Positions 1,616 to 2,374 of a stretch of 5,573 bases of DNA are shown one piece after another (position 1 is the stretch's first letter; the number at the start of each line of letters is the position of its first letter). The DNA is from Escherichia coli (lineage in GTDB: Bacteria > Pseudomonadota > Gammaproteobacteria > Enterobacterales > Enterobacteriaceae): assembly GCF_003334765.1 (NCBI RefSeq), contig NZ_QOWT01000064.1; one strand, written 5' to 3'. The notes under the pieces are model-generated. The model worked only from the letters and a program-made list of their open reading frames with translations, ran no database searches and was not told the origin of the DNA. Made by a program: the position numbers and the translations under genes.

Positions 1616-2374
1616 ATGAATAACACCAAAAAATCACTAAAAGTGCTCTTTATTGGAGAATCCTGGCATATTCATATGATTCATTCAAAAGGATATGACA
1701 GTTTTACCTCAAGTAAATATGAAGAAGGTGCGACCTGGTTACTCCAATGTCTGAAAAATAGTCAGGTAGATGTCACCTATATGCCGGCACATACGGTACA
1801 AATTGCCTTCCCTGAAGATGTGGCACAGTTAGAACAATATGATGCCATCGTTATTAGTGATATTGGTAGTAATACTTTCCTGCTACAAAATGATACTTTT
1901 TATCAGCTTCGCATAAAACCAAACGCTCTCGAACTGATTAAAGAATATGTGAATAACGGTGGTGGGTTATTGATGATTGGCGGCTATCTCTCATTCATGG
2001 GAATTGAAGCAAAAGCCAATTATAAAAATACAGTTCTGGCTGATGTGCTCCCGGTTACGATGTTAGATGGTGACGATCGTGTCGAAAAACCAGAGGGTGT
2101 TATTGCACAGCCATCACAACCTGAACATCCAGTTATTAAAGGGTTCTCTGAATATCCTTTTTTCCTAGGTTATAACCGGGCGATCGCTAAAGAAAATGCT
2201 GAGGTGGTATTAACAATAAACAACGCTCCATTACTGGTCTTTGGTAACTATCACAACGGGAAAATAGCCTGCTTTATGAGTGACTGTTCACCGCACTGGG
2301 GTACACAGCAGTTTATGTCCTGGCCGTTCTATACCGCGTTGTGGGTAAATATACTGACTCATATTGCAAGATAA
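1616..2374 (+). CDS. ThuA-like / class I glutamine amidotransferase-like fold protein (function unknown)
   Basis: ATG 1616 preceded by GAAGGGA (1603-1609). 252 codons with pattern KVLFIGESWHIH...YDAIVISDIG...ELIKEYVNNGGGLLMIGGYLSF resembling ThuA-like GATase1-fold proteins. No canonical G-x-C-x-G nucleophile elbow is visible, so a classical amidotransferase activity is not supported. Confidence 0.8.
   Translation: MNNTKKSLKVLFIGESWHIHMIHSKGYDSFTSSKYEEGATWLLQCLKNSQVDVTYMPAHTVQIAFPEDVAQLEQYDAIVISDIGSNTFLLQNDTFYQLRIKPNALELIKEYVNNGGGLLMIGGYLSFMGIEAKANYKNTVLADVLPVTMLDGDDRVEKPEGVIAQPSQPEHPVIKGFSEYPFFLGYNRAIAKENAEVVLTINNAPLLVFGNYHNGKIACFMSDCSPHWGTQQFMSWPFYTALWVNILTHIAR

What the first reader, a model, noticed from the sequence alone, without database searches (positions are those of the whole stretch)
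1616..2374. ThuA-like GATase1-fold protein without an obvious nucleophile elbow
The protein has the alternating strand/helix pattern and GGG-containing segment typical of ThuA-like class I amidotransferase-fold proteins, but the position where a Cys nucleophile would sit reads MIGGYLSF. Its chemistry is therefore probably not glutamine hydrolysis. ThuA-like proteins have been linked to disaccharide/keto-sugar utilisation operons (recalled), which fits a sugar-processing cassette, but its role here is unassigned.
Basis: inference. Interest (0 to 1): 0.4.

Follow-up and report, generated by a model that had tools for sequence, protein, structure and literature searches.

The report
STM3548-type amidotransferase-fold protein without thiol
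This gene is the E. coli copy of Salmonella STM3548, a protein with a solved structure and no known function that has the glutamine-amidotransferase fold but lacks the catalytic cysteine, so its database name 'glutamine amidotransferase' is probably wrong; its neighbours point to breakdown of a ribose-containing compound.

Summary
ORF 1616..2374 (+, 252 aa) is a real gene with GGG at residues 115-117 and MIGGYLSF at 120-127.

It is a full-length member of Pfam PF07090 GATase1_like (E 1e-111). It is the ortholog of Salmonella STM3548 (PDB 2GK3, E 7e-145), and an identical protein is already in RefSeq.

No Cys column is conserved across the family. The strand-end positions are invariant Gly122 and Gly123, followed by an aromatic residue. 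Thiol-based glutamine hydrolysis is therefore excluded.

The gene sits in the known rikA-STM3548-STM3549-STM3550 cassette, whose three downstream genes are still uncharacterised according to a 2026 paper. In 74 species-level loci it lies next to a transporter (73), an interchangeable C-N or C-O hydrolase (69) and a ribokinase-like PfkB kinase (49).

It is the most conserved part of the cassette. It stays about 60% identical between E. coli and Bacillales, where the neighbouring kinases are only 30-36% identical.

My best inference, at low to moderate confidence, is a thiol-independent enzyme that does the invariant step in catabolism of a ribosyl or nucleoside-like conjugate.

In this window the upstream rikA gene is frameshifted. 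The thing is already known, and interest is modest.

The parts
392..1602 (+). rikA (STM3547 ortholog): a DeoR-type HTH fused to a ribokinase-like PfkB kinase. It is a pseudogene in this window. A 4-bp deletion after base 1362 shifts the frame, so the GAGD catalytic segment falls out of frame.
   Evidence: NCBIfam ribokinase TIGR02152 E 1.6e-69 and DeoR-type HTH hits. Frame analysis. The 4-bp gap relative to L001. RefSeq annotates the same allele as 'frameshifted'. RikA ribokinase activity is shown experimentally for Salmonella in PMC13432705.
1603..1609 (+). Shine-Dalgarno-like GAAGGGA, six bases upstream of the ATG. Only 13 bases separate the restored rikA stop from this gene's start.
   Evidence: Read directly from the sequence.
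1616..2374 (+). The finding itself: an STM3548-type GATase1_like (PF07090) protein of 252 aa. It has the class I amidotransferase fold without a thiol nucleophile.
2431..3396 (+). STM3549 ortholog: an inner-membrane DMT transporter with two YdcZ repeats.
   Evidence: Pfam PF04657 matched twice, E 3.7e-30 and 1.3e-15. RefSeq names it 'DMT family transporter'.
3399..4433 (+). STM3550 ortholog: a phosphotriesterase-family amidohydrolase, ortholog of Proteus mirabilis Pmi1525 (PDB 3rhg, 4qsf).
   Evidence: Pfam PTE E 1.4e-46. PDB 3rhg_A E 1.1e-173 over residues 1-344. Metal-stimulated esterase activity of Pmi1525 is cited in PMC5341072.
4441..4467 (.). GC-rich 12-bp hairpin just after the PTE stop codon. 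It is a likely terminator shared with the convergent ggt remnant.
   Evidence: Terminator-like site, 12 pairs with 9 G-C.
4473..4801 (-). Remnant of the 3' end of ggt (gamma-glutamyltransferase), a pseudogene. It marks the ancestral chromosomal context of the cassette.
   Evidence: NCBIfam gamma-glutamyltransferase E 8e-25 for the 74-aa ORF. RefSeq pseudogene annotation. The fragment is 85-87% identical to residues about 506-552 of the ~600-aa reading frames (602 and 603 aa as called by my own ORF caller; not separately annotated) that lie convergent and adjacent to the PTE gene in Citrobacter L009 and L010.

Best explanation
The ORF encodes the E. coli ortholog of Salmonella STM3548. This is a soluble protein of Pfam family PF07090 (GATase1_like, formerly DUF1355).

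Shown:
- It has the class I glutamine-amidotransferase (flavodoxin-like) fold.
- The catalytic Cys is absent. The core strand 117-121 ends in invariant Gly122 and Gly123 plus an aromatic residue, and the usual following helix is replaced by a Gly-rich loop. It therefore cannot hydrolyse glutamine through a thioester, and the RefSeq name 'glutamine amidotransferase' is a fold-based misnomer.
- It is the second gene of the conserved cassette rikA (ribokinase) - STM3548 - DMT transporter - PTE hydrolase.
- Across Proteobacteria and Firmicutes, the same protein is kept at about 60% identity. Around it the transporter varies (DMT, Rbs-like ABC, NupC, amino-acid permease). The C-N or C-O hydrolase also varies (PTE, M20 deacylase or carbamoylase, Pro-iminopeptidase-type alpha/beta hydrolase, choloylglycine-hydrolase type). 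The PfkB kinase is exchanged as well.

Inferred mechanism:
- It is an enzyme, not a scaffold, and it performs the invariant step of a pathway that imports a ribose-containing (nucleoside-like or acylated ribosyl) compound.
- It most likely releases or converts the ribosyl moiety so that the kinase can feed it into pentose-phosphate metabolism. The variable hydrolases would deal with the variable acyl or aglycone part.
- Catalysis would be thiol-independent acid/base or metal-assisted chemistry. The candidate residues are the family-invariant acidic and polar residues Asp82, Asp153, Asp154, Glu157, Asn187, Arg/Lys216, Asp223, His227 and Trp228. Several of these sit at the C-terminal strand ends, where amidotransferases have their active site.
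For: Identity and fold:
- Pfam PF07090 E 1.1e-111, full length.
- PDB 2gk3 (STM3548) E 6.9e-145; 3soz (STM1381) E 1.1e-109; 3rht E 7e-14.

No thiol:
- The highest Cys frequency in any column of 52 diverse members is 46%, at position 224. There it is Ile in 31% of members.
- Gly122 is present in 52/52 and Gly123 in 51/52.

Retained functional surface:
- Near-invariant residues are Asp82 51/52, Asp154 52/52, Glu157 51/52, Asp153 50/52, Arg155 48/52, Asn187 48/52, Asp223 48/52, His227 47/52 and Trp228 49/52.
- Among 29 close homologs, mean column identity is 71%.

Context:
- The cassette order matches the published Salmonella locus, and RikA is an experimentally shown ribokinase.
- In 74 species-level loci, a same-strand transporter lies within six genes in 73. 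A hydrolase does so in 69 (within two genes in 61), and a PfkB kinase in 49.
- A homolog at 44% identity sits in the order Rbs-like ABC - PTE - this protein - PfkB - BtpA.
- There are further nucleoside and ribose links: NupC transporters in L007, L055 and L057; cytidine deaminase immediately downstream in Serratia L055; an RpiB-like isomerase downstream in L083; and RbsB-like binding proteins.
- No canonical IUNH nucleoside hydrolase is present in any locus.

Invariance:
- Against Bacillales, this protein is 59-68% identical, while the co-located PfkB is 30-36% and the PTE 36-42%.
Against: - There is no biochemical evidence for any activity of this family. The 2026 RikA paper states that no functional study of STM3548-3550 exists.
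- Many domains of this fold are non-catalytic. Examples are the GH42 middle domain, IFT52 and OST48.
- 25 of 74 loci lack a nearby PfkB.
- More distant family members sit in other carbohydrate contexts, such as GH127 with LacI or beside a single LacI-type gene.
- The candidate catalytic residues were chosen by conservation and by position in the secondary structure only. I could not inspect coordinates.
- Ser81 and His227 are each lost in a few otherwise intact members, and the losses do not co-occur. A Ser-His triad is therefore not supported.
- The substrate is unknown. RikA's ribose activity may be a side activity, as its authors themselves caution.
Confidence: 0.4

Rival explanations
1. 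It is a non-catalytic hexameric partner. The protein would be a structural, substrate-binding or regulatory subunit, as this fold is in GH42 middle domains, IFT52 and OST48. It would assist the neighbouring hydrolase or kinase rather than catalyse a reaction.
For: - The title of the 2GK3 structure paper reports a 'novel hexamerization motif' (reference list).
- The model shows a long beta-hairpin at residues 16-37 whose residues are invariant in the close subfamily. This could explain the high conservation through interfaces.
- The gene lies within two genes of a hydrolase in 61 of 74 loci.
Against: - The adjacent hydrolases belong to at least four unrelated folds: PTE, M20, alpha/beta hydrolase and Ntn-type CBAH. 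One scaffold is unlikely to fit all of them.
- Family-wide invariant residues are mostly charged or polar and lie at strand ends of the canonical cleft, not only in the hairpin.
- The hairpin sequence itself is not conserved in the wider family, whereas the cleft motifs are.
Confidence: 0.25
2. It is a ThuA-type protein working with a sugar dehydrogenase to form or process 3-keto sugars.
For: - The wider family occurs in LacI-regulated carbohydrate loci.
Against: - There is no Pfam ThuA hit at E <= 10.
- A motif screen found no Gfo/Idh/MocA-type (ThuB-like) oxidoreductase among same-strand neighbours of about 75 loci.
- None of the recurrent neighbour families is an oxidoreductase.
- The recurrent partners are a ribokinase and amide or ester hydrolases instead.
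Confidence: 0.1
3. It is a genuine glutamine amidotransferase or glutaminase, as RefSeq names it.
For: - The fold is that of class I amidotransferases.
- RefSeq product name.
- A conserved His227 lies in the loop after the last core strand, near where the His of the triad sits in real enzymes.
Against: - No Cys is conserved anywhere in the family, and the strand-end positions are invariant glycines.
- No synthase or acceptor domain or subunit recurs in the neighbourhoods.
- NCBIfam has no amidotransferase model that matches.
- No Glu follows His227, unlike the HPE motif seen in PabA.
Confidence: 0.03

Closest known systems
Salmonella Typhimurium STM3548 (PDB 2GK3; Petrova et al. 2007, J Struct Funct Genomics 8:19)
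   Different: In E. coli the cassette sits in an accessory island full of IS debris, found in about 35% of complete genomes. In this window rikA is frameshifted.
Salmonella STM1381 (PDB 3SOZ), which by size and order is SPI-2 'orf245' next to 'orf408'
   Same: It is a paralog in the same subfamily, E 1.1e-109. It also follows a DeoR-PfkB fusion kinase of 408 aa.
   Different: Its downstream partners are a proline-iminopeptidase-family alpha/beta hydrolase and an amino-acid permease, instead of DMT and PTE. One Tn-seq study lists orf245 and orf408 among genes needed at pH 3.
ThuA-like proteins (PDB 1T0B, 4E5V, 4JQS; Pfam PF06283)
   Different: There is no profile-level sequence match. Identity is 15-20%. 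No ThuB-type oxidoreductase partner was found.
Class I glutamine amidotransferases such as E. coli PabA (PDB 8RP0)
   Different: PabA has Cys79 in GVCLGHQ and His168-Pro-Glu170. This protein has Gly-Gly-Tyr after the equivalent strand, no conserved Cys, and a 22-residue beta-hairpin insertion after strand 1. Profile-profile alignment to a small PabA/TrpG profile was not significant.
System-level analogues: the rbs ribose operon, the pseudouridine psuK/psuG pair and the frl fructoselysine operon. I name these from general knowledge, not from a test.
   Same: Each combines a transporter and a PfkB-family kinase with one further enzyme that frees or converts the sugar part. The regulator is of DeoR or LacI type.
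   Different: The 'further enzyme' here belongs to an uncharacterised family. An additional amide or ester hydrolase of varying fold is almost always present.

Membership tests
Pfam PF07090 GATase1_like (DUF1355) / STM3548 family | Full-length match to the family profile | tested here: met
   E 1.1e-111, score 372.7, residues 9-250 on model positions 1-245 of 247.
Pfam PF07090 GATase1_like (DUF1355) / STM3548 family | Sequence and fold match to the solved prototypes 2GK3, 3SOZ and 3RHT | tested here: met
Pfam PF07090 GATase1_like (DUF1355) / STM3548 family | Family motifs: GES after strand 1, SD after strand 3, GGG..M.GGY.SF.G, DDRxE and SDxxPHW | tested here: met
   All are present in the window protein. 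Column counts are given.
Pfam PF07090 GATase1_like (DUF1355) / STM3548 family | Hexamer built on the protruding beta-hairpin | not testable with these tools
   The hairpin at 16-37 is present in the model. Oligomeric state was not modelled. The structure paper is not held, and only its title was seen.
STM3547-STM3550 (rikA) cassette | Gene order: DeoR-PfkB kinase, GATase1_like, DMT_YdcZ transporter, PTE hydrolase, all on one strand | tested here: met
   Window ORFs with family assignments. The same order occurs in Citrobacter, Salmonella, Budvicia, Providencia, Proteus, Klebsiella and Orbus. In this window the kinase is frameshifted.
ThuA (Pfam PF06283) | Match to the ThuA profile | tested here: not met
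   hmmscan lists a single family at E <= 10, and it is PF07090.
ThuA (Pfam PF06283) | Fold similarity to ThuA-like structures | tested here: met
ThuA (Pfam PF06283) | Operon partner ThuB (a Gfo/Idh/MocA oxidoreductase) | tested here: not met
   A motif screen of same-strand unlabelled neighbours gave 0 candidates. No oxidoreductase cluster appears among recurrent neighbours. The screen was crude because no profile was available.
Class I glutamine amidotransferase (functional) | Cys nucleophile at the strand-turn-helix elbow | tested here: not met
   Positions 122, 123 and 124 are Gly 52/52, Gly 51/52 and Tyr/Trp/Phe 52/52. The highest Cys frequency of any column is 46%. DSSP shows no helix after strand 117-121. 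Equivalence to PabA Cys79 rests on topology, not on a residue-level superposition.
Class I glutamine amidotransferase (functional) | His and Glu of the triad (the HPE motif) | tested here: inconclusive
   His227 is conserved in 47/52 members, in the loop after strand 215-220. It lies six residues after the strand end, and no conserved Glu follows. Structural equivalence was not established.
Class I glutamine amidotransferase (functional) | Associated synthase (ammonia-acceptor) domain or subunit | tested here: not met
   None is found among recurrent neighbours in 74 loci.
IUNH-type nucleoside hydrolase (considered only as a functional analogue) | IUNH fold and the N-terminal DxDxxxDD calcium motif | tested here: not met
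   The fold is amidotransferase-like. No IUNH-like ORF occurs in any fetched locus. It could work like a ribosidase, but it is not a member of this family.

The most novel reading that the evidence does not exclude
STM3548-type proteins would be a new class of thiol-independent enzymes built on the amidotransferase fold. They would cleave or convert the ribosyl part of modified or damaged nucleosides or acyl-ribosyl compounds. They would form the invariant core of a widespread salvage pathway (406 of about 100,000 species genomes) whose transporters and amide or ester hydrolases are swapped to suit different aglycones.
Probability: 0.2. Interest if true: 0.6.

Novelty: already known. Interest (0 to 1): 0.3.

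Why it matters
- The gene, its family and two crystal structures of close relatives are already public, so the sequence feature itself is not new.
- What is open is the function. A 2026 paper on the neighbouring ribokinase says that no one has studied STM3548-3550.
- This analysis shows that the amidotransferase-fold protein is the most conserved and least replaceable part of the module across two phyla.
- Knowing its reaction would correct a widespread misannotation. 'Glutamine amidotransferase' is attached to thousands of RefSeq entries.
- It would also assign a physiological substrate to the Pmi1525-type phosphotriesterase homologs and explain a cassette carried by about a third of E. coli genomes and by Salmonella, Proteus and Providencia.
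- The interest is moderate and specialist. It does not bear on a long-standing general question.

Tried and rejected
- **Profile-profile alignment to real amidotransferases.** I ran hhalign with the 52-sequence family alignment against a 4-sequence PabA/TrpG profile. Global mode gave nothing, and local mode gave a 72-column alignment at probability 0.4%. The Cys position is therefore mapped by topology only.
- **Family profile against PDB sequences.** Only 2gk3, 3soz and 3rht matched. No ThuA or amidotransferase chain appeared.
- **Ser81-His227-Asp223 serine-hydrolase triad.** I rejected this as unsupported. Ser81 is Gly in 3 members and His227 is replaced in 5, in different sequences that are otherwise intact.
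- **Zinc site from His20, His23, Cys224 and His227.** These are invariant only in the close subfamily and not family-wide. I could not test the geometry without coordinates.
- **Domain fusions P0042 (MFS-like N-terminus) and P0046 (CoA-transferase-like N-terminus).** Both lack the first strand and hairpin of the domain and look like gene-call chimeras in metagenome contigs. I did not use them.
- **Anti-phage defence.** There were no PADLOC hits for this protein or its two downstream neighbours.
- **Locus search with the diverse alignment.** It failed for lack of a conserved stretch. I repeated it with close homologs.
- **Literature.**
  - No functional paper on PF07090 or DUF1355 was found.
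  - The ThuA search was swamped by unrelated words.
  - The 2GK3 structure paper is not held.
- **Promoter and terminator scan.** Promoter-like sites were no more frequent than in shuffled sequence (8 found, 10.5 expected), and terminator-like sites only slightly more (8 found, 5.2 expected, sd 2.4). Apart from the hairpin after the PTE gene, nothing was usable.

Full report
**Observation**

Its translation has GGG at residues 115-117 and MIGGYLSF at 120-127. Its only cysteines are at positions 45, 219 and 224. A GAAGGGA ribosome-binding motif lies six bases before the ATG.

The gene is real. An identical protein heads a database cluster of 1455 member sequences. RefSeq annotates the same sequence in E. 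coli as WP_001066368.1.

**What it is**

- hmmscan against Pfam gives one family only, GATase1_like PF07090. The match has E 1.1e-111 and covers the whole protein.
- NCBIfam has no model for it. PADLOC gives nothing.
- Against PDB sequences, the best match is 2gk3_A, Salmonella STM3548 'putative cytoplasmic protein', at E 6.9e-145 over residues 1-252.
- Next come 3soz_A (STM1381, E 1.1e-109) and 3rht_A, a '(GATase1)-like protein' (E 7e-14).
- An AlphaFold2 model built on 52 diverse homologs is very confident, with pLDDT 97.3.

The family label is not, because this is PF07090 and not ThuA PF06283. ThuA is nevertheless the nearest other family by structure.

**The missing nucleophile**

- In 52 members that are 29-46% identical to the query, no column is more than 46% Cys.
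- The column that reaches 46% is position 224, in the SDCxPHW loop. It is Ile in 31% of members.
- Core strand 117-121 is followed by Gly122 (52/52), Gly123 (51/52) and an aromatic residue at 124 (Tyr 37, Trp 12, Phe 3).
- DSSP shows an irregular loop after that strand rather than the helix of a nucleophile elbow.

By order of secondary-structure elements, the PabA elbow corresponds to residues 122-124 here. I could not confirm this residue by residue. Profile-profile alignment to a small PabA/TrpG profile was not significant, and the tools give no coordinates.

The conclusion that thioester-based glutamine hydrolysis is impossible rests on the family-wide absence of Cys. That absence is a direct test.

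The residues that are conserved family-wide are Glu/Asp15, Ser81, Asp82, Asp153, Asp154, Arg155, Glu157, Asn187, Arg/Lys216, Asp223, His227 and Trp228. Several of them sit at the C-terminal ends of strands 1, 3 and 4 and of the last core strand, which is where amidotransferases have their active site.

A Ser81-His227 triad is not supported. The few losses of each residue occur in different sequences.

**Genomic setting**

- The window is an E. coli accessory region. 1885 of 5426 complete genomes hold at least 80% of it.
- RefSeq annotates the run as rikA (pseudogene), 'glutamine amidotransferase', DMT family transporter, phosphotriesterase-related protein, a ggt fragment and an ISL3 pseudogene, among other IS debris.
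- My own assignments agree:
  - The upstream ORF is a DeoR-type HTH fused to a ribokinase-like PfkB domain.
  - The downstream ORFs are a double DMT_YdcZ transporter and a PTE-family hydrolase.
  - That hydrolase is the ortholog of Proteus mirabilis Pmi1525, PDB 3rhg, E 1.1e-173. Pmi1525 is known only as a promiscuous metal-stimulated esterase.
- A 2026 paper shows that Salmonella STM3547 (RikA) is a ribokinase. It states that STM3548, STM3549 and STM3550 are conserved with it in Citrobacter, Escherichia, Budvicia and Proteus but have never been studied. It suggests the four genes form a pathway for an unknown substrate.
- In this window rikA is broken. A 4-bp deletion after base 1362 moves the GAGD catalytic segment out of frame.
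- That allele is in 142 of 1961 E. coli genomes that carry the gene.
- In another strain, rikA instead has a stop codon in the linker between the HTH and the kinase.

**Wider context**

HMMER against 1.84 billion cluster representatives finds 1722 relatives at E <= 0.001 and 136 at E <= 1e-30. A scan of one genome per species finds 406 relatives, and I obtained 80 loci from it. I called ORFs in these loci and labelled them with seed proteins whose Pfam families were known.

Recurrent operon types:

| Type | Gene order | Where |
|---|---|---|
| A | DeoR-PfkB / this protein / DMT / PTE | Enterobacterales, Orbus, Succinivibrionaceae |
| B | DeoR-PfkB / this protein / Pro-iminopeptidase-family hydrolase / amino-acid permease | Citrobacter, Salmonella (the STM1381 locus) |
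| C | LacI / PfkB / this protein / M20 deacylase / RbsBAC-like ABC / BtpA / PfkB / M20 | Bacillaceae |
| C' | LacI / PfkB / this protein / BtpA / PfkB / RbsBAC-like ABC / PTE, sometimes followed by M20 | Bacillaceae |
| D | ABC / ureidoglycolate-lyase-like / M20 ArgE/DapE-type deacylase (a carbamoylase-family M20 in some loci, e.g. L005) / this protein | Paenibacillus, Cohnella |
| E | choloylglycine-hydrolase type / this protein / NupC / LacI / PfkB, with PTE in some loci | Sporosarcina, Oceanobacillus |

Counts over 74 loci:

| Same-strand neighbour within six genes | Loci |
|---|---|
| Transporter | 73 |
| Any hydrolase of the listed folds | 69 (61 within two genes) |
| PfkB kinase | 49 |
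| PTE | 31 |
| M20 | 38 |

- A homolog at only 44% identity sits in the order ABC / PTE / this protein / PfkB / BtpA.
- In Serratia the gene lies between NupC and a cytidine deaminase. In Fredinandcohnia it precedes an RpiB-like isomerase.
- No IUNH-type nucleoside hydrolase is present in any locus. A crude screen found no Gfo/Idh/MocA oxidoreductase.
- More distant members lie in other LacI-type carbohydrate loci.

**The invariant element**

Against the E. coli proteins, Bacillales copies of this protein are 59-68% identical. The PfkB beside them is 30-36% identical and the PTE 36-42%. Within type A operons, all four genes diverge at similar rates.

The amidotransferase-fold protein is thus the constant part of a module whose other parts are exchanged.

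**Interpretation**

Shown:
- identity, fold and the absence of a thiol;
- membership of the rikA cassette;
- co-location across phyla with a transporter, a ribokinase-like kinase and an amide or ester hydrolase of varying fold.

Inferred:
- The protein is an enzyme that performs the step common to all variants.
- The one characterised neighbour is a real ribokinase, and the transport systems are of ribose or nucleoside type. The common step is therefore most simply the release or conversion of a ribosyl moiety.
- The variable hydrolases would then act on the variable acyl or aglycone part.
- The chemistry would be acid/base or metal-assisted, through the invariant Asp, Glu and His residues.
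- A NagA/NagB-like scheme (deacylation, then deamination of an amino-pentose phosphate) would also fit the gene set. I cannot separate these options.

Confidence is about 0.95 for the identity and for 'not a glutamine amidotransferase'. It is about 0.4 for the enzyme-of-the-invariant-step reading, and about 0.2 for ribosyl cleavage specifically.

The main rival is a non-catalytic hexameric partner. The title of the 2GK3 paper reports a hexamerisation motif, and many relatives of this fold are structural domains. Against this rival, the neighbouring hydrolases have unrelated folds and the conserved residues are polar cleft residues.

**Comparison and novelty**

The protein is the ortholog of a solved structure and a member of a curated Pfam family. 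Identical sequences are already annotated in RefSeq. The feature is already known. The new content here is the correction of the ThuA label and of the RefSeq product name, together with the cross-phylum context analysis.

Interest is modest, at 0.3.

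Noticed in passing
window 392-1602, indel after base 1362: rikA is a pseudogene in this window. A 4-bp deletion (ATTC, relative to strain E10) shifts the frame before the GAGD catalytic motif. The allele is in 142 of 1961 E. coli genomes that carry the gene. Strain E10 instead has a stop at codon 81, between the HTH and the kinase, which would leave the Met90-started kinase intact.
   Followed up: yes
window 4473-4801 (- strand): This is a remnant of the 3' end of ggt. In Citrobacter and Salmonella, ORFs matching this fragment (~600 aa in Citrobacter L009 and L010, most likely ggt) lie convergent right after the PTE gene. The E. coli island therefore seems to have been taken, with a piece of ggt, from such a chromosome.
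   Followed up: partly
window 1-200 and 4845-5573; L001 1-8000: The cassette is embedded in IS debris: IS110, IS66, IS2 and IS5 elements, an ISL3 pseudogene, and a 157-aa ORF at 5085-5558 with an IS21-type HTH hit. In one strain it lies next to remnants of the colibactin island (clbP fragment). G+C is about 38-45% in the first three genes of the cassette (rikA to the transporter) and rises to about 47-51% through the PTE gene, which is the level of the right flank.
   Followed up: partly
window 3399-4433: The PTE-family gene is the ortholog of Pmi1525 (PDB 3rhg and 4qsf, E 1e-173). Pmi1525 has a solved structure but only promiscuous esterase activity is known. Its conserved pairing with the amidotransferase-fold protein and a ribokinase may point to its physiological substrate.
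   Followed up: partly
L055 7207-12483 (Serratia proteamaculans): Here the homolog lies between a NupC nucleoside transporter and a tetrameric-type cytidine deaminase, downstream of a serine hydroxymethyltransferase-like gene. This is the clearest nucleoside link among the loci.
   Followed up: partly
L002, L040, L051, L072, L086 and L088, and L090 (metagenome): A BtpA/SgcQ-family TIM-barrel gene and a second PfkB kinase recur beside the homolog. The second kinase's best NCBIfam hits are ribokinase and ribose-1-phosphate kinase. BtpA/SgcQ also has no known function.
   Followed up: no
L056, L058, L063 and other Paenibacillus or Cohnella loci, about 8100-8660: A 169-183 aa protein distantly related to ureidoglycolate lyase (E 6e-10, far below cutoff) sits between the ABC transporter and the M20 gene in 13 loci. 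Together with the carbamoylase-family M20 genes seen in related loci (L005, L046), this hints at a ureido-type substrate in these operons.
   Followed up: partly
L003, L037, L042 and L049 (Citrobacter, Salmonella): The paralogous locus encodes products of 408 aa, 245 aa, about 297 aa and about 447 aa and lies next to the tetrathionate reductase gene. By size and order it matches SPI-2 orf408, orf245, orf32 and orf48. 'orf245' is widely used as a Salmonella virulence-gene marker, although it is a metabolic gene of this family.
   Followed up: partly
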